From positions 44,480-108,479 of the IMG/VR virus record IMGVR_UViG_3300025769_010106: a DNA stretch of 64,000 nucleotides. One strand, given 5' to 3'. The position numbers and the translations under genes were made by a program. The number at the start of each line of letters is the position of its first letter. The stretch's first letter is position 1. Origin of the DNA: a virus. A model generated the notes under the pieces. The model saw only the letters and a program-made list of their open reading frames with translations. It was not told where the DNA came from and searched no databases. Positions 958 through 64,000 of this stretch are shown here, piece by piece.

Positions 958-1637
958 TGAAGGTAAGCCTGGTTAGTTTTAGCCAAGCCAGTCCAGAGTT
1001 TTTAACTGAACACGATCTTGCTGATGCAGATGTGCAGGACCTTATTGCGTTCTGTGCTAGAGTCAGCAACCCTAGTGGACAGTTAAACATGGAGACTAGT
1101 GCAAAGCTCATTAAATATCTGATCAAACACAAGCACTGGAGTCCCCTAGAAATGGTCAGTGCTTGTATGGAGATTGAAACTACTCGTGATATAGCAAGGC
1201 AGATCCTACGTCACAGGAGTTTCAGTTTCCAGGAGTTTAGCCAACGCTATGCTGATCCCACAAAGGATCTAGAGTTTGTTATTCGTGAAGCACGTTTGCA
1301 GGATACTACAAATCGTCAAAACAGTATCGAGAACGATAATCAGCAGCTGGCTGTTGACTGGGAAGAGTATCAGAGAGATGTAATTGAATATGCCAATAGA
1401 GCATATCAATTTGCTATTGAAAATGGTATTGCAAAAGAACAGGCTCGTGCTGTTCTCCCGGAAGGACTGACCGTTTCTCGGTTATACATGAACGGCACAC
1501 TACGTAGTTGGGTACACTATATTGAACTACGTGGTGATAATGGTACTCAAAAGGAACACATGGAGATTGCTCATGCTTGTGCTAAGGTTATTGCAGATGT
1601 GTTCCCACTTGCAGACGAAATGTTTGAATGGTCATAA
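957..1637 (+). CDS. thyX: flavin-dependent thymidylate synthase
   Basis: HWSPLE and RHRSFSFQEFSQRY (RHRx7S) ThyX signature; TQKEH. Confidence 0.97.
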   Translation: MKVSLVSFSQASPEFLTEHDLADADVQDLIAFCARVSNPSGQLNMETSAKLIKYLIKHKHWSPLEMVSACMEIETTRDIARQILRHRSFSFQEFSQRYADPTKDLEFVIREARLQDTTNRQNSIENDNQQLAVDWEEYQRDVIEYANRAYQFAIENGIAKEQARAVLPEGLTVSRLYMNGTLRSWVHYIELRGDNGTQKEHMEIAHACAKVIADVFPLADEMFEWS

Positions 1638-2181: not shown

Positions 2182-3142
2182 TAAAGAATTAAATACTGCT
2201 TTAATAAAAGCTAACGACCTGGTTCTAAAATCAGGTCGTGTCATGATGGGTGAATATACACTGGAGTTTGAAAGCAGAATAGCAAAAGTATCTGGAGCAA
2301 ACTACGCATGTGTAGTAGGAAGTGGAAGCGACGCTCTGTTGTATGCGTTAGTATCTAGTAACACTACAGGACTTGTTGGCATGCCTGCTCAAACTTTTAT
2401 TGCTACTAAAAATTCTATTTTAAGAGCTGGATGCATACCTTATTTGGTAGATGTAAAGAATAATGCTCTATTAAATTGGGATTTAATTCCAAACAGTGTT
2501 GATTGTGCTGTATGGGTTGGGTTATTTGGTAACTCTGAACCTCTACCTGATAACTTATTTGTAATAGAAGATGGAGCTCAACATTTTGGAGCAAGGCTTC
2601 AATCCAATATTGCAACATATAGTTTTGATCCTACAAAAAGTCTACCTAACTTTGGCAATGGCGGTGCAGTTGTTAGCAACGACAAACGTGTTATAGACAA
2701 TGTAAAACTTTTACGCAGACATCAAATAGTAAATGGACACACGGGCGGCAACAGCATAATGAGTGAACGTGAGTGTGCTGAAATGTGTGTTAAGTTAGAT
2801 TACTTTCCTCTTTGGCAAGAGCGTAGACAGGAGATTGCTAGAGATTATTACACACATTTAGGACATCTTGTAAATTGTGTCACTCAACTAGATGGACAGA
2901 TAAGCAAGTTTATTATTGAAACAACTATGCGGGCTGACCTACAAAAATACCTATCTCACAAACATATAGAGACCAAACGTGCCTATGAACATCCAATATA
3001 CGAATTTGACCAGGCATCCAAAAACTGTAAAAGATTTCTACAATTACCCTGTGATCCTTATATGACTGATGAAGAACTGTTAGCTGTTATAATGGCTGTC
3101 AAAGAATTCTTTGAGGAAAGCCCACTCGAAAGTTTGCTGTAG
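2150..3142 (+). CDS. DegT/DnrJ/EryC1/StrS PLP-dependent (sugar) aminotransferase
   Basis: EFESRIA..GSGSDAL, TFIAT, IEDGAQHFG, SFDPTKSL (PLP lysine), GNGGAV, LQLPCDPYM. Confidence 0.9.
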   Translation: MIHLHNLNRLNKELNTALIKANDLVLKSGRVMMGEYTLEFESRIAKVSGANYACVVGSGSDALLYALVSSNTTGLVGMPAQTFIATKNSILRAGCIPYLVDVKNNALLNWDLIPNSVDCAVWVGLFGNSEPLPDNLFVIEDGAQHFGARLQSNIATYSFDPTKSLPNFGNGGAVVSNDKRVIDNVKLLRRHQIVNGHTGGNSIMSERECAEMCVKLDYFPLWQERRQEIARDYYTHLGHLVNCVTQLDGQISKFIIETTMRADLQKYLSHKHIETKRAYEHPIYEFDQASKNCKRFLQLPCDPYMTDEELLAVIMAVKEFFEESPLESLL

Positions 3143-55434: not shown

Positions 55435-57192
55435 ATGTTTCAGTTAAATACGTTAACCGTTAAGAATTTCATGTCGGTTGGAAATCAGACCCAGGCTGTC
55501 GATTTTAACAGACGTGATCTCACTCTTGTGCTTGGTGAAAACTTAGATCAAGGAGGTGATGATTCTGGCGCCAGAAATGGCACGGGTAAAACCACAATCA
55601 TCAATGCACTGAGTTATGCTCTCTACGGCCAAGCTCTTACTAATATCAAGCGTGACAACTTGATTAACAAGACCAACGGTAAGAACATGTTGGTCACTGT
55701 AGACTTCGAGCTAAACGGTACACGCTATCATATCGAACGTGGACGTAAACCCAATGTACTAAAACTACAAGTGGGTGATGCTGAGATTGAAGAGCAACAG
55801 GGCGATAGCAGAGAAACACAGTCTGCTATTGAAAAGATGTTGAACATGAGTCACGAAATGTTCAAACACCTTGTTGCTCTCAACACCTATACGCAACCGT
55901 TCCTAAGCCTAAGTGCTAGTGACCAGCGTGATATTATTGAACAGATGCTGGGCATTACCATGCTTAGTGAGAAGGCAGAAAAACTAAAGGAACTTGGCAA
56001 GCAGACTAAGGATATGATTACTGAAGAAGAATATCGTATCAAAGCAGTTGAGGATGCTAACAAACGTATCGAAGAGCAGATTGACAGTCTAAAGAAACGT
56101 CAGCGCCTTTGGCATGCTAAACGTGATGAAGACGTAAAAAAGTTGCAGTCAGGTATCGAAGATCTAGCACATATTGATATTGATAGTGAACTTGCTAATC
56201 ATAAACTGCTGGAAGATTTTTATGTACAAAAGAAAAGGCGAGAAGAAGCAGAGCGTTGGATTAGTAGCATTGATAGTGACAATGACAAGCAGAATAAACT
56301 TATTGGTAAACTAGATAAAGAAATTAGTTTACTTGAAGAACACAAGTGTCATGCTTGTGGGCAGGATATTCATGATACTACGCAGGAAGAAATTCTAGCC
56401 AGTAAGCAGGAACAGAAGCGGGAAGCTGCAATGCAGATACTTGCTAACGAAACTCAACGTGTTGAACATTTGGATGTATTGCGAGAGGGCGAGCTTGGTG
56501 TTGCTCCGCAGGTGTTTTACGATACCATCGACGATGCTTATAATCATCGTACCACAGTTGCAAGTTTGGAAAAGGAACTAGCCAAGCGTACAGAAGATGA
56601 AGACCCTTACAGTGAGCAGATTGAGGAAATGGAAAGTCAGGGTATTGAGCAGGTAAGTTGGGATACTATCAACGAACTTGCTAGACTCCGTGACCACCAG
56701 GACTTCCTACTAAAACTGCTAACCAACAAAGACAGTTTCATACGTAAACGCATTATAGACCAGAATCTACAGTTCCTTAATGCACGGTTAACCTACTACT
56801 TGGGACACATGGGTTTATCACATACTGTTCGTTTTATGAACGATCTAACAGTAGAAATACAGGAACTAGGCCGTGACTTGGACTTTGATAATCTCAGTAG
56901 AGGCGAACGAAATAGACTGATTTTAAGTTTGAGCTGGGCGTTCCGTGATGTATGGGAAAGTCTATATCATCCAATCAATCTATTATTCATTGACGAGGTT
57001 GTTGACAGTGGCATGGACGCTAGCGGTGTTGAAAATGCACTTGCAGCCCTAAAGAAGATGAGCAGAGATCGTAATAAGAGTGTATGGCTGGTTAGTCATA
57101 AAGATGAACTTGGCGGGCGTGTTAACAATATCCTTAAGGTTGTTAAGGAAAATGGATTCACTAGTTACGAGACGGATGTAGAAGTGGTATGA
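55435..57192 (+). CDS. gp46: recombination ATPase, Rad50/SbcC-like
   Basis: NFMS, NGTGKTT Walker A, CHAC zinc hook, LSRGE signature, FIDE Walker B, VSH. Confidence 0.95.
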   Translation: MFQLNTLTVKNFMSVGNQTQAVDFNRRDLTLVLGENLDQGGDDSGARNGTGKTTIINALSYALYGQALTNIKRDNLINKTNGKNMLVTVDFELNGTRYHIERGRKPNVLKLQVGDAEIEEQQGDSRETQSAIEKMLNMSHEMFKHLVALNTYTQPFLSLSASDQRDIIEQMLGITMLSEKAEKLKELGKQTKDMITEEEYRIKAVEDANKRIEEQIDSLKKRQRLWHAKRDEDVKKLQSGIEDLAHIDIDSELANHKLLEDFYVQKKRREEAERWISSIDSDNDKQNKLIGKLDKEISLLEEHKCHACGQDIHDTTQEEILASKQEQKREAAMQILANETQRVEHLDVLREGELGVAPQVFYDTIDDAYNHRTTVASLEKELAKRTEDEDPYSEQIEEMESQGIEQVSWDTINELARLRDHQDFLLKLLTNKDSFIRKRIIDQNLQFLNARLTYYLGHMGLSHTVRFMNDLTVEIQELGRDLDFDNLSRGERNRLILSLSWAFRDVWESLYHPINLLFIDEVVDSGMDASGVENALAALKKMSRDRNKSVWLVSHKDELGGRVNNILKVVKENGFTSYETDVEVV

Positions 57193-57785
57193 AAGCATTA
57201 ATAACAGGAACATCAAGTGGTGTTGGATCTAATATCCACAAATTTGTAGATTGGAATATTACAAATTTAACAAGAAAAACTGTAGACTTAGATTACCCCC
57301 AGAGCATCACAGAGGCACAGATCCCATATGCGGATATTGTTATTAATAATGCCGGGCATGATCTCGGTGGGAAAGTTCTTTTTGCAGATCATAAATTTGA
57401 TCATTGGCAACGCATTTTAAACACTAATTTAGTGAGTGCGATGCGCATTACACAATTGGCATTACAAAAAAATCCCAACCTAATAGTTGTTAATATCACA
57501 AGTACAAACAATGACAAGTATTGGGGTAACGATCTTGTGTATAGTTTGAGCAAAGTTGCGCTGGAACACTTTGGAAAAATGCTTAAAATAGATTACCCTG
57601 ATGTAGTAGTAAAAGAAGTAAGACTTGGACTTACCAAAACAGAATTTAATAATAACAGGTACAAAGAAAACCACAAGCCTGTTGATGACCTTTATTCAAT
57701 GCCTTGCTTAGACCCTGTTTTGGTTGCAAATAAAATTGTTGATTTTATAAACAGTCATGAAAATTTTATTAGGATACAACCATGA
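57189..57785 (+). CDS. short-chain dehydrogenase/reductase
   Basis: ITGTSSGVG, NNAG, NITS, YSLSK. Confidence 0.88.
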   Translation: MKALITGTSSGVGSNIHKFVDWNITNLTRKTVDLDYPQSITEAQIPYADIVINNAGHDLGGKVLFADHKFDHWQRILNTNLVSAMRITQLALQKNPNLIVVNITSTNNDKYWGNDLVYSLSKVALEHFGKMLKIDYPDVVVKEVRLGLTKTEFNNNRYKENHKPVDDLYSMPCLDPVLVANKIVDFINSHENFIRIQP

Positions 57786-58873
57786 AAAACATATATGGCT
57801 GGCAACTATACCACTGGCATATAGAACCTAGCAGCAAATGTAGTTTGCGCTGTCCTAGGTGTCCTCGAACAGAAATGCCAGATACCCCATGGCTCCATAA
57901 AGAAATTAGTGTGGAGCAATTTAAGCATGCATTTCCTAGCGATTTTATTGCAGAGCATGTTCAACGCTTTACAATGTGCGGAGACGTAGGAGATCCTATT
58001 TACTGCAAAGATTACTTGAAAATTATCGAGTATATCAAAGATATAAAGCCTACCTGTCATGTTTATACAATAACAAATGGAAGTTATAAAACAGAAGGCT
58101 GGTGGCAAGAGTTTGCTAGAATTAGCAATGAATATGATACTGTGAACTTTAGTGTAGATGGTTACGATCAAAAATCGAATGATTTGTACCGTATTAATAA
58201 CAATTTTGAAAGCATTATGCTTGGAATGCGCATCATGGGACACCAAAGCACAGCATTTGTAAATTGGGCTGCTATCTATTTTAGTTTTAATCAAAATAAC
58301 TTACATAAAATTGAAGACTTAGCTAGACAAAACGGATGCGATGCTATACAATGGACCAAGAGTACAAAATTTAATTTTAAGTACCCAGGCGCTTGGGGAG
58401 AAGTTGATACACTAGAACCAAGCAGTGAATATATAAGCAAAACAGATAGATATGAAAGGTATGTACAGCGTTTAACCAATCGTATTCAAAATATTGATCA
58501 ATACATGCGTACCAACTTACAGAAATATCTTAATGCTAAAACAACCGATACCTTAATTCCGCTATGCTTGGTGGGAAATAGAGGTATGTTTATAAATGCG
58601 GAAGGCACTGTTCATCCATGCAGTTGGACTAGTTTTCCTTATAATGAAATGAGTTTTGAAGATAAGACTATTAAATATGAAGATAGTTTTTTTCAAAAAT
58701 ACAGACACATATTGAATGTAAAAAATGATCTAACTATAGAACAAGTGTTAAATCACGAGCTGTGGGAGAAGTTTTTTTTCAGTATGAACACAGATACCTG
58801 GGTAGAATGTAGTCTAAAATGCAGATCAAGCATTGTAGATGAAAACTACGCTGTTGGGTATGAAACAAATTAA
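57782..58873 (+). CDS. radical SAM enzyme with C-terminal SPASM/twitch domain
   Basis: CSLRCPRC, GDVGDP, TNGS, FSVDG; C-terminal CLV..GTVHPC..CSLKC. Confidence 0.9.
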   Translation: MKNIYGWQLYHWHIEPSSKCSLRCPRCPRTEMPDTPWLHKEISVEQFKHAFPSDFIAEHVQRFTMCGDVGDPIYCKDYLKIIEYIKDIKPTCHVYTITNGSYKTEGWWQEFARISNEYDTVNFSVDGYDQKSNDLYRINNNFESIMLGMRIMGHQSTAFVNWAAIYFSFNQNNLHKIEDLARQNGCDAIQWTKSTKFNFKYPGAWGEVDTLEPSSEYISKTDRYERYVQRLTNRIQNIDQYMRTNLQKYLNAKTTDTLIPLCLVGNRGMFINAEGTVHPCSWTSFPYNEMSFEDKTIKYEDSFFQKYRHILNVKNDLTIEQVLNHELWEKFFFSMNTDTWVECSLKCRSSIVDENYAVGYETN

Positions 58874-58943
58874 TAAAATATACACGCGCTACAGAAATTT
58901 CACTTTATGCAAATCTGAAACGGGTTGATTATATATAATATAC

Positions 58944-59363
58944 ATGACATGGTTATACAACGGCAAACCAGTAGAAGATATACCAGAGGGAGTAGTAGGC
59001 TTTGTCTACTTGATCTCTAATACTCTGGACAATAGAAAATACATAGGCAAAAAACTAGCTCAATTTAAAAAGACCAGGCCCCCTCTCAAAGGCAGAAAAA
59101 ATAAACGACGTTCAACAGTAGAATCAGACTGGCGCGATTATTACGGCTCATCAGACAATTTAACGGCAGACATAGAACTACTAGGCAAAGAAAACTTCAA
59201 ACGTGAGATACTTTTCTATTGTTACAGCAAGGGAGAGTGTAGTTACATTGAAGCAAGAGAACAGTTCAGGCACCGTGTTTTAGAATCCGACGAATGGTAC
59301 AATGGACATATACGAGTTCGTGTACACAAGAGTCAGAAAATTATCACAGAATCAAACAAGTAG
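58944..59363 (+). CDS. stand-alone GIY-YIG endonuclease (T4 EndoII/Seg-like)
   Basis: GFVYLI..KYIGKK, WRDYYGSS, FKREIL, conserved E and WYN. Confidence 0.85.
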   Translation: MTWLYNGKPVEDIPEGVVGFVYLISNTLDNRKYIGKKLAQFKKTRPPLKGRKNKRRSTVESDWRDYYGSSDNLTADIELLGKENFKREILFYCYSKGECSYIEAREQFRHRVLESDEWYNGHIRVRVHKSQKIITESNK

Positions 59364-59377
59364 GAGAATACAATATC

Positions 59378-60136
59378 ATGGATCCATGGTATCTAAAAGT
59401 TTTTGATAATCAAGTTCCAAAAGATCTTATGGAAAGAACTTGGGAATATGTCTTAGATGAAGAATATCATGTTACTTTCTATGATCCTCCAGCAAGCAAA
59501 TGGTATCCTAGAACTAAGACCTATCTATCTCCAGATACCAATTACCCTTCTACTCATCGTTGCCCATTAGCATGGGACGACAAGAGTCTTGAAGAACGCA
59601 GCCCTCGGATTTTTGAACTCTGGCAACACATTAATAATAACGTATTAGATGGCAAGTTTGAAATTGAAGGCAAAGCTGAAGGAATGCCAAATTATATGAC
59701 TGGGATAAGTCCTCGTTATGGCGAAAAGGGTACGCCTGGTATTGGCTGGAATGTATACATTCATGGTATTGACAACTGGTTAAGGAAAAGACCAAAGGCA
59801 ATTCATAGAGATAATCATAAACCAGAAGAAGCAGGTTATTATACACTAGTTTACTTTAGTAATATTGTTTGGTATCCCAGTTATTTTGGTGAAACTATAT
59901 TCTGGGCAGATGCTCCCGACACTGGGGACCATACTGGATTTATAGATAAAGACCAGGATAGAGGATTTCCCATAGGGCCTGCATCTAATGTAGTTAGCCC
60001 ATTGCCTGGTAGATTTATGCTCTATGACAGTAGATATCTACACGGTACTAAACCAGTACATGTATCCAGTGAACATCAATTATATGGCATAGTTTTTAGG
60101 CTCCGTCACAAAGAAGAATGGCAAGTATCGGCTTAA
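59378..60136 (+). CDS. 2OG-Fe(II) oxygenase (prolyl-hydroxylase-like)
   Basis: HRD, TLVYF, GETIF, PGRFMLYD..LH; AGGAG SD before ATG 59378. Confidence 0.8.
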   Translation: MDPWYLKVFDNQVPKDLMERTWEYVLDEEYHVTFYDPPASKWYPRTKTYLSPDTNYPSTHRCPLAWDDKSLEERSPRIFELWQHINNNVLDGKFEIEGKAEGMPNYMTGISPRYGEKGTPGIGWNVYIHGIDNWLRKRPKAIHRDNHKPEEAGYYTLVYFSNIVWYPSYFGETIFWADAPDTGDHTGFIDKDQDRGFPIGPASNVVSPLPGRFMLYDSRYLHGTKPVHVSSEHQLYGIVFRLRHKEEWQVSA

Positions 60137-60410
60137 TTTAGGCTCAATATAGCAACCTTGAATCAACGCCTTGAGGCAGTAGAAATACGGCTGGATCTGG
60201 CGAGTTGCGAGCAATACTCCTAAACACTGTATCAACTAGGAACGAGGATACAGAGATAGCGTATACTATCTGTCGACGTAGGTGGGAAAAGGTCAGAGTC
60301 CTTGGAGTGCTACAAATACCTACTTCCGGATGCTGGATAATGACGGGAAATGTCACCAGATTAGGCGGGACCATTACGTGGTTCCGTCTGACTGAAACTT
60401 CTGGGAAATA
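60137..60410 (+). ncRNA. candidate structured non-coding RNA (or ssDNA) element of unknown family
   Basis: GC-richer than its flanks; nested stems with G-U pairs and a GAAA tetraloop (see findings); strand inferred from G-U pairs and tetraloops. Confidence 0.5.
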
Positions 60411-60420
60411 TTAAATCATT

Positions 60421-60478
60421 AAAAATAAAGAAAAAAAACACGAACGAAAGTGAGTGTTTGGATGATCGTAGATCATCC
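60421..60478 (-). terminator. two hairpins followed by T-tract on the minus strand; possible intrinsic terminator
   Basis: GGATGATC-gta-GATCATCC (60460-60478), AAACAC..GTGTTT (60436-60459), A-run 60421-60438. Confidence 0.45.
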
Positions 60479-60485
60479 GTAACGA

Positions 60486-60513
60486 TTGACAAAACAAAAT
60501 AATAAGTTATAAT
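60486..60513 (+). promoter_or_regulatory. sigma70-type promoter
   Basis: TTGACA-16-TATAAT upstream of 60579. Confidence 0.7.
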
Positions 60514-60578
60514 GTAGTATTAATAAAGGTGTAAATACATCTACCCAAAACAAGACACTATTACGGAATGGGTAAGAG

Positions 60579-60821
60579 ATGGATAAAAGAACACGAAGTG
60601 ATCTAGAACATACATTTATCGAATTTGTAGACAAAGTTCAAGAATTAGGATTCAAATTTGATATAATGACAAAACTTGAACTTACATATGTAAAAGGTTC
60701 AGCTTTAGAATCGCCACATAATATAGCTAATAAAATTACTCTGAATCCTGATGATTTTATAAAAGAAGAACCTAAAGTACTAAAAGAAGAAGAGGGAAGT
60801 TCAGACTGGTCGAAACTCTAA
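60579..60821 (+). CDS. hypothetical protein
   Basis: 80 aa with its own promoter; abuts the convergent gene. Confidence 0.65.
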   Translation: MDKRTRSDLEHTFIEFVDKVQELGFKFDIMTKLELTYVKGSALESPHNIANKITLNPDDFIKEEPKVLKEEEGSSDWSKL

Positions 60822-61010
60822 TTAGAAAAACGGCAATCCCGACTTTTTTGTGGTTTCCAGATTACTATCAATAAGATCTCTTATTATTCCTCTTTCCTGT
60901 GGGCTGAGGAAACTTGCTTCTTCATAGGTCAGACCACCCCGCATATACCAACACAGTGTAAATAATTCCCGCTTTAGACTCTTAACTTCTTTTTCCATGC
61001 TTTCTAGCAT
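60822..61010 (-). CDS. gp51-like tail/baseplate assembly protein; probably made as a frameshift fusion
   Basis: WYMRGGLTYEEASFLSPQER; no SD; frame stays open upstream to the slippery site. Confidence 0.65.
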   Translation of the reverse strand: MLESMEKEVKSLKRELFTLCWYMRGGLTYEEASFLSPQERGIIRDLIDSNLETTKKSGLPFF

Positions 61011-61036
61011 GGATACTATTTCGTCGCGGGATAAGT

Positions 61037-61921
61037 TTAAGAGTCTAAGTCGAAAAAATTTGCGTTATCAAACGTAAATGGAATTTCATAATTGTGTTGA
61101 CATTCAGGACATACCATAGGCATTGGTTTTGTTTTAATTTTCTCAGCTATAGCAGTAATTGAGTCCTGAATAAATTTAAATGTTTTCCTATCTGTATTCC
61201 TAATAAATTCATCAATAAATCCAGGATGAGTAACAACAGTTTCGTCATCCATGGTAATACTAGCAATACCATCTTTTAGCATACTTACAGTAAAGCCATT
61301 TAGTCTTTCAAATATTTCATTTACTTTTGCAATCTTTTCATCGTCTGATAAACTTTGGTCCTGCGTAACTCTTACAAGTCTTTCAGTATTAAAAGTTTCC
61401 ATATTTAATGTATTGATAGTTTTATAATTTTGTGGTTTAAAAGCAAAAGTTAGATTGTTATGTGTTTTTGTTTCTTGAAAAACAGTAAAATCTATTGGCC
61501 TGTCAATGAAAAGTTTTAAATCAGCGTCGTAGTTATTTTCAGCTTTACAGCTTGGACATGTAGAAAGGAATTCCATCTTTTCTCCATAACTGGCTATACG
61601 AATAGCTATTAAAATGACATCAAGATCAATATTAGGAATAGCCCAAGGATCCTTAATAGCAGGTATACAACTTTTGATAACGTCTACCACTCCCTGACCA
61701 TTAAGTAGTGCATCCGGATTATTAAAAAGCATCTCATCTTTTGCAGTCATAGGATATACTGGATACTCTCCAGTTAGTGTAGGATCCAACGCACCTTGAC
61801 TCCAGTAATGTCCCTGACTGGGTAATTTTAACTGAATAGCAGGAGATCTAAAGTGTTTCTGTAGTGGATTTGGTTCTATAGGTCCTGGTAAATTGCTTAG
61901 ATCATCGGATGATAAAGCCAT
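61037..61921 (-). CDS. gp26: baseplate hub assembly chaperone, gp26-like
   Basis: LPSQG, PMTAKDE, IRIASYG, CPSC and CPEC zinc pairs, ends ..NFF. Confidence 0.8.
   Translation of the reverse strand: MALSSDDLSNLPGPIEPNPLQKHFRSPAIQLKLPSQGHYWSQGALDPTLTGEYPVYPMTAKDEMLFNNPDALLNGQGVVDVIKSCIPAIKDPWAIPNIDLDVILIAIRIASYGEKMEFLSTCPSCKAENNYDADLKLFIDRPIDFTVFQETKTHNNLTFAFKPQNYKTINTLNMETFNTERLVRVTQDQSLSDDEKIAKVNEIFERLNGFTVSMLKDGIASITMDDETVVTHPGFIDEFIRNTDRKTFKFIQDSITAIAEKIKTKPMPMVCPECQHNYEIPFTFDNANFFDLDS
61052..61061 (-). other. predicted -1 programmed frameshift site (A AAT TTT TTC)
   Basis: Two overlapping X XXY YYZ heptamers; the -1 frame is continuous with 60822..61010. Confidence 0.7.
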
Positions 61922-61933
61922 AGATTTCTCCTA

Positions 61934-61968
61934 ATAAATATAATGTGTAGATTTATAATAATATTTAT
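61934..61968. promoter_or_regulatory. divergent late promoters ATAAATA (+ 61934-61940, - 61962-61968)
   Basis: Intergenic gap between the gp26-like and tape-measure genes; imperfect inverted repeat TGTGTAGAT/ATCTACGCA. Confidence 0.6.
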
Positions 61969-61998
61969 CTACGCATATTATAGGGTCTAGGCTTTTTT

Positions 61999-64000
61999 AT
62001 GGACGAATCACAACTACAAGATTTAATACAACAACTGGAATCATTCGTAGCTGGTGGTCCTGCGAGTGAAGCAACACTGTCAAAAATCGCAGAAAAAATG
62101 GGCGCACTTAAAAAACAAAACGATAACACTGGTGCAGCTTCCAAAGGTCTTCAACAAGTAGCACAGGGAGCAGAGGAACTAGATGGCAGTTTTGATTCTC
62201 TAGATCGTGCAGCTAATGATGTAGCCAAAGCATTTAAAAAAGCCAAATCTGATATGCTAGCCAGCGGAAAAACAATAGGCTCCGGATTTAAATCACTTGG
62301 AGGTGGTGTTGAAGGTGTGACTACGGCTATCAAGACTATGATATCTGGTGTATTTGCAGTCGGAGGAGCGATCGCTGGATTGATACCTTTTATAGGAGGA
62401 GGTTTATCAGGTGCAGTAAAAGCTGCTGGTGAAGCACTTGGGGCAGGTTTTTCCTTCTTATTAGGCGCAGCTACTAAAACTGCTGATGCCTTTAATGCTG
62501 TTGCTGATACTGGCGCAACATTTGGCGGAAGCATGTTGGGGATGAGAGAAGCAGCCCACGATGCAGGTCAGAGCTTTGAATCGTTTAGCAAAGGTTTTCT
62601 TGAGAACTCAGCAGGACTGACACGATTTGCTGGTAGTGCAACTGCGGGCGCTAAGGCACTTAGTGGAATACAAAAAGCGGTTAGCGGAAATACCGGATTA
62701 CAACGTAGTCTACAGCTAATGGGTGTTGCTCTGAAAGACCAGCCTGCATATTTAGGCGAGTATCTATCCATGCTCGCTGGTAGTGGTGTACAACTATCTA
62801 ACTTTAATGATAATTTTACTGAGTTGGCAAAACGTGCTGTAGATTATAGAAAAGAATTAATTATTGCTAGACAGTTGACCGGTGAGAGTAATGAAGAACA
62901 AAAAGCTAAAATGCGAGCTATTGCTAAAGATGCCCAGTTTCAGGCAAAACTAAGCACAATGGGTGCAGATGCGGCTGAAGGACTTACAAAACAGATGGCT
63001 GCGCTTCCTACTTATATGCAACCATTATTTAAAGACCTTGTTCTATTTGGCGACGCTACAAAAGATAGTGCTGGGTTGGCGATGACGATGCCAGGAGCAA
63101 TGGAAGCAATGCGAGAAGCTATAGCAAACCCAACTTCAGGTGCTGCAGGCATAAATGCGGCAATGGAAAGCAGAGCAGCACAAATTTCTCAGGATGTTCA
63201 GGATAGCGCACAAGCAATTATTGTGTCAGGACACACCAGCAGTGAAGCATTAAAACAATCTGCCGGTGCATTTGTAGAGGCCAGGAATTATGCACAAAGA
63301 CTATTAGGTATTGATAAAATCAGAGAGGATCTTGCAAACGCTAGTGAGGGTATAGCTGGTGACAAATTTACAGAAAGTGTATTGAAATTCCAAGGGGATG
63401 TAAGGGACTTGCAGGTTGCTCTTGAAACTATGGTTACCGAACTCATGAAAAGTCCCCTATTCACCACAGTTGTGGATACGGCTGGTAATATGATTGGGGA
63501 GTTTGCAAGCAAACTTCAAGATGCAATTAAATTCATGGAAACAGTACAAGATCCTAGAAAGATGCTTTCTGATGCAGCGAAAAAAATAGGTGAAGCTTTT
63601 GAGGCAGCACTAAGAAAAGTTCTACCAGACTGGATGGTCCGCGGTGAGTCTGACCCCTTGACACCAGAACAAATTGAAACACAAACAAAAAATTTGCAAG
63701 GACCTGTAGAGCAGCTCCAATCAAACATTGAAGAGGCACAAGCTCGTGTTGACGCCAACCCCAATCACAGAGGAAACCAGGATCATCTGGACAGACTAAC
63801 AAGGAAACAACAGACGAACTACGAAACCTATAAAAAGCTTTATGCACTTGCTGTTAAAAACAATAGTATGACCCAAGAGCAAGCTGACGCTGAGTTACAA
63901 AAGCTTTTTCCTACCCCGGTTACACCTAGGGCATTTGGTGGTCCTGTAAGTATGAATAGACCTTACCTTGTTGGTGAACAAGGTCCTGAAATATTTTCTC
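61999..64000 (+). CDS. tape measure protein, 3'-truncated, absent from the ORF track
   Basis: ATG at 61999 (MDESQLQDLIQQ..), Ala/Gly-rich helical sequence, in frame with RAFGGPV..PYLVGEQGPEIF at the window end. Confidence 0.85.
   Translation, partial: MDESQLQDLIQQLESFVAGGPASEATLSKIAEKMGALKKQNDNTGAASKGLQQVAQGAEELDGSFDSLDRAANDVAKAFKKAKSDMLASGKTIGSGFKSLGGGVEGVTTAIKTMISGVFAVGGAIAGLIPFIGGGLSGAVKAAGEALGAGFSFLLGAATKTADAFNAVADTGATFGGSMLGMREAAHDAGQSFESFSKGFLENSAGLTRFAGSATAGAKALSGIQKAVSGNTGLQRSLQLMGVALKDQPAYLGEYLSMLAGSGVQLSNFNDNFTELAKRAVDYRKELIIARQLTGESNEEQKAKMRAIAKDAQFQAKLSTMGADAAEGLTKQMAALPTYMQPLFKDLVLFGDATKDSAGLAMTMPGAMEAMREAIANPTSGAAGINAAMESRAAQISQDVQDSAQAIIVSGHTSSEALKQSAGAFVEARNYAQRLLGIDKIREDLANASEGIAGDKFTESVLKFQGDVRDLQVALETMVTELMKSPLFTTVVDTAGNMIGEFASKLQDAIKFMETVQDPRKMLSDAAKKIGEAFEAALRKVLPDWMVRGESDPLTPEQIETQTKNLQGPVEQLQSNIEEAQARVDANPNHRGNQDHLDRLTRKQQTNYETYKKLYALAVKNNSMTQEQADAELQKLFPTPVTPRAFGGPVSMNRPYLVGEQGPEIFS

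What the first reader, a model, noticed from the sequence alone, without database searches (positions are those of the whole stretch)
60137..60480. Highly structured ~340-nt non-coding element downstream of a minimal GIY-YIG nuclease
Seen: the only long non-coding stretch in the window, GC-richer than typical intergenic DNA and almost fully pairable. Stems: TTTAGG 60137-42/CCTAAA 60219-24; GCAAC 60152-56/GTTGC 60204-08; CGCC 60167-70/GGCG 60199-202; GTA-GAAA-TAC 60179-88; CTGTATC 60227-33/GATACAG 60247-53; AGATAG 60254-59/CTATCT 60266-71; GTAGGT 60278-83/ACCTAC 60318-23. A three-way junction closed by 60324-30/60400-06 holds hairpin 60333-59 and a 13-bp hairpin with three G-U pairs (60361-91). 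Possible long-range or alternative pairings: GTCAGA 60292-97/TCTGAC 60387-92 and ACTCC 60216-20/GGAGT 60304-08. G-U pairs and GNRA loops favour a plus-strand RNA. I cannot match it to tRNA, tmRNA, RNase P or a group I core. Inference: a novel ncRNA, possibly the partner of the 139-aa GIY-YIG protein (by analogy to nuclease-associated RNAs such as HEARO/omegaRNA), or a replication-origin structure.
Basis: partly seen in the sequence, partly recalled or inferred. Interest (0 to 1): 0.8.

Follow-up and report, generated by a model that had tools for sequence, protein, structure and literature searches.

The report
Twin-word knotted phage RNA gene
The gene-free stretch encodes a real, about 340-base, doubly knotted non-coding RNA of a family found only in uncultured giant T4-like phages; it shows the same 7-letter word twice to an unknown reader, so its function is still open.

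Summary
Window 60140-60479 (+) is a genuine structured non-coding RNA gene. Single-sequence folding is weak evidence (z about -1.5 to -2). Comparison is decisive: more than 70 related copies were fetched from uncultured phage contigs. Across two alignments, 33 base pairs keep pairing through changes on both sides, far above shuffled and slid controls.

The outermost stem and the three-way-junction closure are not conserved.

The RNA carries one 7-nt word twice (GGGAAAT, 60345-51 and 60403-09). Relatives carry at least 24 other words, and the two copies are always identical. I found no complement.

The RNA normally starts right after a small GIY-YIG nuclease gene. In this phage an oxygenase-like gene sits between them. 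The two are usual neighbours, not obligate partners.

Rfam has no match. However, the 3' half is homologous to the uncatalogued 3' part of longer RNAs whose 5' part is the orphan Polynucleobacter-1 motif (RF01718).

No deposited phage genome carries the RNA. The only cellular hits are two large contigs of one MAG. Function is unknown; my best guess is a trans-acting RNA that binds two copies of one matched partner.

This scan has already reported the family at least 25 times on other DNA.

The parts
58944..59363 (+). Small GIY-YIG nuclease gene (139 aa), the RNA's usual upstream neighbour.
   Evidence: Pfam PF19835 SegE_GIY-YIG, E 1.9e-36. At least 8000 relatives at 70-90% identity. In L021/L024 its stop codon abuts the RNA.
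59375..60136 (+). Inserted cargo gene, 2OG-Fe(II)-oxygenase-like (253 aa; 280 aa if read from 59294). It separates the nuclease gene from the RNA in this phage only.
   Evidence: 19 homologues, one cluster with PF13640. 15 loci with homologues of this gene lack the RNA. The gene is absent between GIY-YIG and the RNA in L021, L024 and L030.
60140..60479 (+). The whole non-coding RNA (about 340 nt).
   Evidence: Homology with L021 starts at 60140.
60142..60212 (+). 5' domain: one long irregular hairpin. Stems are 60142-45/60209-12, 60152-56/60204-08, 60167-70/60199-202 and 60175-81/60186-92, with a GAAA loop.
   Evidence: Found only in the window/L023, L021/22/24 and L030. L030 and L021 give compensatory changes in the first and last stems, read from the alignment.
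60216..60308 (+). P5, a long-range helix ACTCC 60216-20 / GGAGT 60304-08. It encloses P1, P2 and P4 and crosses P3, which makes the first pseudoknot.
   Evidence: 5 of 5 pairs change on both sides; 100% of cells are paired.
60227..60253 (+). P1 hairpin 60227-33/60247-53, with the near-invariant loop ACTAGGAACGAG.
   Evidence: 5 of 7 pairs have double changes; the loop is invariant.
60254..60271 (+). P2, a variable hairpin 60254-59/60266-71.
   Evidence: 4 of 6 pairs have double changes. Its length varies from 18 to about 70 nt among relatives.
60278..60323 (+). P3, GTAGGT 60278-83 / ACCTAC 60318-23 (pseudoknot partner of P5). It encloses P4, 60284-87/60299-302, and its 11-nt loop.
   Evidence: P3 is 99% paired, with only G-C to G-U changes. 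P4 has 2 of 4 pairs with double changes. The T60302C difference in the near-identical contig turns a G-U pair into G-C.
60291..60393 (+). Second pseudoknot: the P4 loop GGTCA 60291-95 pairs with TGACT 60389-93.
   Evidence: 100% paired in 15 sequences; the two changes seen both keep pairing. Otherwise invariant, so this is inferred rather than proven.
60333..60359 (+). P6, stem 60333-36/60356-59 with an inner stem 60341-44/60352-55. It displays word copy 1.
   Evidence: Single-sequence folds of 15 members place a closing stem here in all but L038 and L074, built from different sequences.
60345..60351 (+). Twin word, copy 1: GGGAAAT.
   Evidence: The same word lies 58 nt downstream. Relatives carry at least 24 other words, always identical in both copies.
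60364..60388 (+). P7 hairpin 60364-72/60380-88. Its 3' strand and the linker GGTTCCGTCTGACTGAA are invariant.
   Evidence: 99% paired. All changes lie on the 5' strand and give G-U or A-U pairs, which is RNA-level pairing on the + strand. Fold z -5.8 on +, -1.3 on -.
60403..60409 (+). Twin word, copy 2: GGGAAAT, single-stranded.
   Evidence: No complement inside the RNA, in the flanks or enriched in the genome.
60436..60459 (+). P8 hairpin: 6 bp, then tandem G.A/A.G (60442-43 and 60452-53), then 2 bp and a GAAA loop.
   Evidence: All 8 Watson-Crick pairs show double changes. The GA...GA flanks and the GNNA loop are kept.
60460..60478 (+). P9, the terminal 8-bp hairpin with a GTA loop. It is the probable 3' end of the RNA.
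   Evidence: 6 of 8 pairs have double changes; 99% paired. A T-run follows it in only some relatives.
60486..60513 (+). Perfect sigma-70-type promoter (TTGACA, 16 nt, TATAAT) for the next gene. It is not part of the RNA.
   Evidence: 12 of 12 matches. Conserved in L021, L022, L025, L026 and L030 and degraded in L029; absent in other subgroups.
60579..60821 (+). 80-aa ORF of unknown function, the conserved downstream neighbour in this clade.
   Evidence: 55-70% identical translated matches at the same place in L021, L026, L029 and L030. No Pfam or PHROG family.

Best explanation
Window 60140-60479 (+) is the gene of a stable, independently folding phage non-coding RNA. It belongs to a large superfamily of 'twin-word' RNAs of uncultured giant T4-like aquatic phages.

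Shown:
- Fold: a 5' hairpin domain and a core of five helices with two pseudoknots. The core has about 60 invariant bases. After it come a module with two displayed copies of one 7-nt word flanking an invariant hairpin and linker, a tandem-GA/GNRA hairpin, and a terminal hairpin.
- The RNA strand is +.
- The RNA is present once per record.
- It holds a fixed genomic slot: gp46, cargo, GIY-YIG, cargo, RNA, promoter, 80-aa ORF.
- Its 3' half is homologous to the uncatalogued tail of the Polynucleobacter-1 RNAs.

Inferred:
- It has no promoter of its own, because homology starts exactly at its 5' end behind two different upstream genes. It would therefore be made as the tail of the early GIY-YIG transcript and trimmed to a stable RNA ending at the terminal hairpin.

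Most likely mechanism (inferred, about one chance in three): it acts in trans. The conserved knotted core is a scaffold. The two identical single-stranded words each pair with, or are read by, one copy of the same lineage-specific partner, most probably a nucleic acid encoded far away in the phage or in the host.

The GIY-YIG nuclease is a habitual neighbour sharing the transcript. It is not the RNA's obligate partner.
For: Family and structure:
- Core covariation: 85% of cells paired against 68% in shuffles, 19 pairs with double changes, score 0.473 against 0.161 (0 of 500 shuffles), slid controls 0.05-0.13.
- 3' helices: 94% paired, 14 pairs with double changes, score 0.425 against 0.187 (0 of 500).

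Strand:
- Fold z -4.6 on + against -1.0 on -. One-sided G-U changes occur in P7.

Twin word:
- The two copies are identical in every member across at least 24 different words.
- Both copies lie in unpaired places.

No own promoter:
- Promoter scan. The homology boundary is at 60140 behind the oxygenase gene here and behind the GIY-YIG gene in L021.

Synteny and copy number.

Homology to Polynucleobacter-1 carriers:
- RF01718 matches directly behind the GIY-YIG gene in 5 of 50 records.
- The 3' architecture is shared.
- A 3'-half HMM hits those loci at E 4e-10 to 6e-7.

Phage-only distribution.
Against: - No transcript data exist, so the RNA's ends and stability are inferred.
- No partner for the word was found. 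It is not inside the RNA. It is not in about 9 kb of flank per locus (own word 0.88 forward and 0.46 reverse copies per locus, the same as for foreign words). It is not enriched genome-wide.
- Identical words only 58 nt apart are always inherited together, so part of the 'covariation' between lineages is linkage. What does need selection, or copying, is the identity of the two copies within each RNA.
- A dimeric protein reader is not excluded.
- Positions 5 (purine) and 6 (A) of the word never vary. That could mean a structural motif rather than plain base pairing.
Confidence: 0.4

Rival explanations
1. RNP scaffold or protein sponge. The knotted RNA binds a phage or host protein, and the two words are the two half-sites of a dimer.
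For: Many invariant unpaired bases lie in loops and junctions. Word positions 5-6 are invariant purine-A. No nucleic-acid complement was found anywhere searched.
Against: Five of the seven word positions change freely between close relatives, even by a 1-nt indel (GGTAAT in L030, GGGAAAT here). The two copies still stay identical. A protein's specificity rarely shifts that fast.
Confidence: 0.2
2. A purely cis-acting 3' element. It would be a structured tail that stabilises or terminates the early GIY-YIG operon and insulates it from the next promoter.
For: It sits at the end of a co-directional gene row with no promoter of its own, directly before a perfect promoter. It ends in two stable hairpins.
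Against: A 340-600-nt fold with two pseudoknots, about 60 invariant bases and twin words is far more than a terminator needs. The terminal hairpin usually lacks a T-run. The RNA keeps its sequence whatever gene precedes it. The downstream promoter exists only in this subgroup.
Confidence: 0.15
3. Replication-origin or primer RNA. The transcript would stay on, or re-anneal to, its own DNA and prime replication, with the identical words allowing a shifted register.
For: An AT-rich stretch (28-30% G+C) and a strong promoter follow the element. T4 origins are promoter-plus-unwinding-element units (established knowledge).
Against: Nothing here tests it. The cumulative GC skew over 57000-63000 rises almost throughout and dips only around 60700-61300; I could not read an origin from it. 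The promoter and AT-rich part are not conserved outside this subgroup. The 98%-complete 354-kb relative lacks the RNA core.
Confidence: 0.1
4. Cofactor or guide of the GIY-YIG nuclease, by analogy with omega RNA of IscB and TnpB.
For: Strong same-strand adjacency in RNA-anchored loci and GIY-YIG-anchored loci.
Against: - An unrelated gene separates the two here and in L026.
- Four RNAs have no GIY-YIG gene upstream and two have it downstream.
- About half of the GIY-YIG loci have no detectable RNA, as do the two cultured-phage loci checked, Melnitz and S-SRM01.
- The protein is 60-90% conserved while the word changes freely.
- The word is 7-8 nt, too short for a guide.
Confidence: 0.07
5. A self-processing or ligating ribozyme, in which the identical words mark two equivalent reaction sites flanking the 58-nt P7 segment.
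For: The invariant, pseudoknotted core is of the size and conservation typical of ribozymes. Identical sequences at two boundaries would leave the same product wherever the exchange occurs (inference).
Against: No Rfam ribozyme or intron matches at E<=10. No family member lacking the P7 segment was seen, but my searches were anchored on the P7 hairpin or on the core, so such a form could have been missed.
Confidence: 0.06

Closest known systems
Polynucleobacter-1 RNA motif (Rfam RF01718; Weinberg et al. 2010, Genome Biol 11:R31, PMC2864571)
   Same: An orphan structured RNA from fresh-water and estuary sequences, function unknown. In phage contigs it lies directly behind the same GIY-YIG gene on the same strand. 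Its carriers continue into a tail with the same twin word, linker, tandem-GA/GNRA hairpin and terminal hairpin as the window's RNA. A 3'-half HMM built from the window's subfamily detects that tail at E 4e-10 to 6e-7.
   Different: The Rfam model covers only the 141-nt 5' part of those longer RNAs. The window's RNA has a different 5' part and core. RF01718 does not match it or its close relatives at E<=10. The twin-word tail is not part of the 141-position Rfam model, and the only paper found for the motif merely lists it in a table.
Large ornate bacterial and phage RNAs of unknown function (GOLLD, ROOL, OLE, HEARO; PMC12286853)
   Same: Long, intricately folded, pseudoknotted RNAs, often phage-associated, discovered by comparative genomics, with no known biochemical role.
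   Different: No sequence or structure match in Rfam. This RNA is smaller (340-600 nt). None of those RNAs is described, to my knowledge, as carrying a freely varying word kept identical in two copies.
T4 SegB and the phage tRNA / stable-RNA gene cluster
   Different: The 139-aa protein here has no DNA-binding extension. It is near-universal and 60-90% conserved. It sits in a fixed syntenic slot next to gp46, unlike a sporadic homing gene. Cleavage of the RNA gene was not tested.
T-box specifier and T4 gene 60 bypass signals (things that read a variable triplet)
   Same: In most words a variable triplet is followed by TGA or TAA, or, in the other register, a variable triplet is followed by an invariant A. 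The two copies flank a strong hairpin 50-68 nt apart. Identical take-off and landing codons flanking a hairpin are the gene 60 signature. A codon followed by a conserved purine is the T-box specifier signature (both from established knowledge).
   Different: - There is no ORF through the words.
- The 'stop' is missing in four word types, including this window's.
- No T-box match in Rfam.
- No tRNA gene is available in the fragments to test matching.
This is a resemblance only.

Membership tests
Polynucleobacter-1 (RF01718) | Match to the Rfam covariance model at or above 37 bits. | tested here: not met
   No match at gathering score, at E<=10 on 59900-60800, on L026, or in the whole records of the window, L021, L024, L025 and L026.
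Polynucleobacter-1 (RF01718) | Same genomic place and homologous remainder of the transcript. | tested here: met
   RF01718 matches lie right behind the GIY-YIG gene in 5 of 50 records. Their tails share the window RNA's 3' architecture and are hit by its 3'-half HMM at E 4e-10 to 6e-7.
Twin-word phage RNA superfamily (uncatalogued; defined in this scan) | One 7-8-nt word present twice, 50-70 nt apart, identical in both copies, flanking a hairpin plus a conserved linker. | tested here: met
   GGGAAAT at 60345-51 and 60403-09. The same rule holds in every relative examined.
Twin-word phage RNA superfamily (uncatalogued; defined in this scan) | 3' hairpin with tandem G.A pairs and a GNRA loop, followed by a terminal hairpin, both covarying. 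| tested here: met
   60436-59 and 60460-78. There are 8 and 6 pairs with double changes.
Twin-word phage RNA superfamily (uncatalogued; defined in this scan) | Starts directly after the small GIY-YIG gene on the same strand. | tested here: not met
   Here a 253-280-aa ORF lies between. The feature is met in the close relatives L021, L024 and L030, so the window shows an insertion into the usual arrangement.
Nuclease-guide RNAs (omega RNA / HEARO with IscB, TnpB) | Obligate co-occurrence with the nuclease gene, and a variable guide of about 16 nt or more. | tested here: not met
   Each occurs without the other. The only variable segment is 7-8 nt. No HEARO or omega RNA match in Rfam.
Group I/II introns, RNase P, tmRNA, tRNA | Match to the family's covariance model or detector. 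| tested here: not met
   cmscan at E<=10 gives only a chance miRNA hit. ARAGORN finds no tRNA or tmRNA. The upstream ORF is full length against its homologues, so nothing is interrupted.
Intrinsic terminator | G+C-rich hairpin followed by a T-run. | tested here: not met
   No terminator-like site is called in 60137-60480. P9 is followed by GTAACGATTG here, and only some relatives have a T-run.

The most novel reading that the evidence does not exclude
The two identical words are specifier-like elements. On this reading the knotted core is a scaffold that captures two copies of one lineage-specific nucleic acid through a short, freely re-programmable word. The partner could be, for example, the anticodon loops of one tRNA species (the word read as a variable triplet followed by an invariant A). 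That would make this a new kind of phage RNA that sequesters, shields or delivers a chosen host or phage RNA.
Probability: 0.1. Interest if true: 0.9.

Novelty: new variant of a known kind. Interest (0 to 1): 0.7.

Why it matters
Large, multiply knotted RNAs with dozens of invariant bases are rare. They have usually turned out to be ribozymes, riboswitches or cores of RNP machines. This one is abundant in uncultured jumbo T4-like phages of natural waters: more than 100 contigs for this subfamily alone, and about half of all loci with the conserved GIY-YIG gene.

Only the 5' part of the sister subfamily is catalogued, as an orphan motif from 2010.

The RNA obeys an unusual rule. A short word may change to almost anything, provided both copies change alike.

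The window adds one useful fact to the earlier sightings. A cargo gene has been inserted exactly at the nuclease/RNA junction without disturbing the RNA. This marks the RNA's 5' boundary and shows that it does not need to abut the nuclease gene.

Tried and rejected
1. Known RNA classes: Rfam at gathering score and at E<=10, and ARAGORN, found nothing.
2. Coding or pseudogene: the 69-aa (+) and 76-aa (-) ORFs have no PHROG family. Relatives show frame-breaking indels and compensatory stem changes.
3. Repeat or mobile element: there is no second copy or partial copy in the 108-kb record.
4. Link to the oxygenase gene: 15 loci with homologues of that gene lack the element.
5. Membership of RF01718: no match.
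6. A complement of the word was not found inside the RNA (6 of 7 pairs, G-U allowed). It was not enriched in five large records. In 505 kb of flanks, own and foreign words occur equally often.
7. 'Sense codon plus stop codon' reading of the word: it fits most words but fails for ACAGGAA, ACAGAAAG, GTCGAAAG and this window's GGGAAAT.
8. tRNA matching could not be tested. There is no tRNA gene in the 108-kb record, and the only one in the fetched loci lies in L186, which is not a family member.
9. T4 EndoII identity of the GIY-YIG protein: no PDB sequence match at E<=1.
10. Cultured carriers: blastn of three family members against 50,697 deposited phage genomes found nothing. The Melnitz and S-SRM01 loci have no core or P8 motif.
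11. A full-length covariance model failed to build, so I modelled the 126-position core only.
Relatives known only from ENA or Logan, such as the 64%-identical oxygenase P0002, could not be fetched.
Full report
**What is at the coordinates.**

The window is a fragment of an uncultured T4-like phage. The record is 108 kb and CheckV rates it 31% complete, so the genome is probably about 350 kb.

Around the finding, all on the + strand, the gene order is:
- gp46 (homologous to L021's 585-aa ORF);
- a short-chain dehydrogenase and a radical-SAM gene;
- a 139-aa GIY-YIG gene at 58944-59363 (PF19835, E 1.9e-36);
- a 253-280-aa ORF at 59294/59375-60136. This ORF has 19 full-length homologues, one of them annotated PF13640, a 2OG-Fe(II) oxygenase;
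- the gene-free stretch;
- a perfect sigma-70-type promoter at 60486-60513;
- an 80-aa ORF.

The gp51-like and gp26-like genes follow on the opposite strand.

So the element is not directly behind the nuclease gene, as the title of the finding says. One gene lies between them.

**The observation on one sequence.**

- The stretch has 45-47% G+C against 28-40% in the flanks.
- Folding alone is weak evidence. The whole element has z -1.47 and -2.0, and the first 88 nt have z about 0.
- Only 60324-60410 stands out, and only on the + strand: z -4.6 against -1.0. This is mainly due to a 17-bp hairpin with four G-U pairs (z -5.8 against -1.3).
- Rfam gives nothing at gathering score or at E<=10. ARAGORN gives nothing.
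- The 108-kb record holds no second copy.

**Relatives.**

Loci with homologues of the oxygenase gene do not carry the element.

A pattern taken from the strong hairpin found five further phage contigs. In L021 and L024 the GIY-YIG gene (90% identical DNA) is followed directly by the element (89% identical). The oxygenase gene is simply absent there. L026 has a different small ORF inserted at the same junction.

Homology with the window begins exactly at 60140, whatever gene lies upstream.

An alignment of GIY-YIG proteins was used to fetch 80 further loci.
- A profile of the element finds it on the same strand just behind the gene in 17 of them.
- A covariance model of the core (126 positions) finds 16 of those 17 loci and no others.

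Of the 80 loci fetched, 57 are true members.

**Structure.**

On the model-based alignment of 19 distinct sequences:
- 85% of cells pair, against 68% in shuffles.
- 19 pairs keep pairing through changes on both sides.
- The covariation score is 0.473 against 0.161 (0 of 500 shuffles reach it). Partners slid by 1-3 columns give 0.05-0.13.

For the 3' helices on 15 sequences the figures are 94% paired, 14 pairs with double changes, and 0.425 against 0.187.

The fold of the window's RNA is as follows.
- A 5' irregular hairpin spans 60142-60212. It is shared only with L021/22/24 and L030, which supply compensatory changes.
- P5 (60216-20/60304-08) has all five pairs covarying.
- P1 (60227-33/60247-53) carries a near-invariant 13-nt loop.
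- P2 (60254-59/60266-71) is variable.
- P3 (60278-83/60318-23) crosses P5 and so makes a pseudoknot.
- P4 (60284-87/60299-302) follows. The single difference in the near-identical contig, T60302C, turns a G-U pair into G-C.
- A second pseudoknot joins the P4 loop (60291-95) to 60389-93. It is invariant, so it is only inferred.
- P6 (60333-36/60356-59) has a counterpart, built from different sequences, in the single-sequence folds of most relatives.
- P7 (60364-72/60380-88) changes on its 5' strand only, always to G-U or A-U. That identifies the + strand as the RNA.
- P8 (60436-59) has six pairs, tandem G.A, two pairs and a GAAA loop.
- P9 (60460-78) is the terminal hairpin.

TTTAGG/CCTAAA is not conserved and clashes with P5. 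The closure 60324-30/60400-06 is broken in the sister L030.

**The twin word.**

GGGAAAT occurs at 60345-51, in the loop of P6, and again at 60403-09, single-stranded after the invariant linker.

Every relative has such a pair 50-68 nt apart, but the word differs:
- GGTAAT in L030, a 1-nt indel relative to the window, present in both copies;
- GTATGAA, ACATGAA, ACATGAT, GCATAAAG, ACATAAT, ACGTGAA, ACAGGAA, ACAGAAAG, GTCGAAAG;
- in other subfamilies AGATGATG, GCATAAT, AGGTAAT, GGATAAT and more.

That is at least 24 words, and the two copies are always identical. Only position 5 (a purine) and position 6 (A) never change.

I found no complement inside the RNA. The word is not enriched in five large records. 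In 505 kb of flanks there is no excess of the own word or its complement over foreign words: 0.88 against 0.88 forward and 0.46 against 0.45 reverse copies per locus.

Most words read as a sense codon followed by TGA or TAA. Four word types, including this window's, do not. No tRNA genes are available in these fragments to test a codon-like reading.

**Relation to the nuclease.**

- In RNA-anchored loci with enough upstream DNA, nearly all have the GIY-YIG gene just before the RNA on the same strand.
- Four have none within 3.0-13.7 kb of upstream DNA, and two have it downstream.
- Conversely, only about half of the GIY-YIG loci show the RNA's 3' module. The two cultured-phage loci checked (Melnitz, 60% identical; S-SRM01) have no such RNA.
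- The slot is syntenic: gp46, cargo, GIY-YIG, cargo, RNA, promoter, 80-aa ORF, then the gp51-like and gp26-like genes.
- The left part is well conserved (84-90% DNA identity). The baseplate genes are much less so (45-56% protein identity).

The two are therefore habitual neighbours, probably on one transcript. The RNA is not a guide or obligate cofactor.

**Relation to known families.**

RF01718 (Polynucleobacter-1) does not match the window's RNA. It does match directly behind the GIY-YIG gene in 5 of 50 other records.

Those longer RNAs continue into the same 3' architecture: twin word, hairpin and linker, tandem-GA/GNRA hairpin, terminal hairpin. A profile of the window subfamily's 3' half hits them at E 4e-10 to 6e-7, and hits more than 20 further GIY-YIG loci.

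So the window's RNA is a sister of the Polynucleobacter-1 RNAs, with a different 5' half. The 141-position Rfam model does not reach the shared tail.

The 2010 paper lists the motif only in a table, as a candidate from Burkholderiales and fresh-water or estuary sequences. I found no later paper on it.

A 29-nt core pattern occurs in only two contigs among 185,579 species genomes. Both belong to one marine MAG and are 335 and 153 kb long; they may be mis-binned phage contigs, which I did not check. No deposited phage genome has a blastn match to three family members.

**Verdict.**

- Identity: a real, plus-strand, doubly pseudoknotted phage ncRNA of the twin-word superfamily. I hold this at about 0.95.
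- Mechanism: open. I rank them as trans-acting scaffold binding two copies of one matched nucleic acid (about 0.35), protein scaffold (0.2), cis 3' element (0.15), origin (0.1), nuclease cofactor (0.07), ribozyme (0.06).

The scan's notebook shows that this family has been reported at least 25 times on other genomes, with the same open question. I re-derived the structure, the twin word and the Polynucleobacter-1 link from my own searches.

Noticed in passing
window 59294-60136: A 2OG-oxygenase-like gene has been inserted exactly between the GIY-YIG stop codon and the first base of the RNA. L026 has a small Cys-rich ORF at the same junction. The window also has an SDR plus radical-SAM pair between gp46 and the GIY-YIG gene, whereas in L026 only about 100 nt separate them. 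Both flanks of the nuclease gene look like cargo-insertion hot spots.
   Followed up: partly
window 60486-60513: A 12-of-12 sigma-70 promoter (TTGACA, 16 nt, TATAAT) lies 7 nt after the RNA's terminal hairpin. It is conserved with the RNA in L021, L022, L025, L026 and L030 and degraded in L029. It is absent in other subgroups of the family.
   Followed up: partly
L234:725-753 and L235:3939-3967 (PBPT01000016.1, PBPT01000082.1): The only cellular genome with the RNA's core is a 'Candidatus Neomarinimicrobiota' MAG from the Red Sea. The hits are on contigs of 335 and 153 kb that also carry the P8 motif. They may be mis-binned jumbo-phage contigs.
   Followed up: no
L051, L054, L056, L081 (about 2420-3010 of each locus): Rfam's Polynucleobacter-1 model covers only the first 141 nt of 450-600-nt RNAs. 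The uncatalogued remainder holds the twin word and two covarying 3' hairpins.
   Followed up: partly
L026 versus L029: The two RNAs share a nearly identical 5' half. Their 3' halves differ (word GGGAAAT against GTATGAA, with different P6), so the RNA evolves by exchange of halves, and both word copies travel together.
   Followed up: no
L040, L047, L048 (about 1520-1590, minus strand): Weak matches (E about 1e-3) of the 3'-half profile lie upstream of the GIY-YIG gene on the opposite strand. They may be chance or a rearranged copy.
   Followed up: no
window 58944-59363: This 139-aa GIY-YIG protein has at least 8000 relatives at 70-90% identity. It is annotated 'NAD synthetase' in many deposited phage genomes (phrog_447), which looks like a propagated mis-annotation.
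   Followed up: partly
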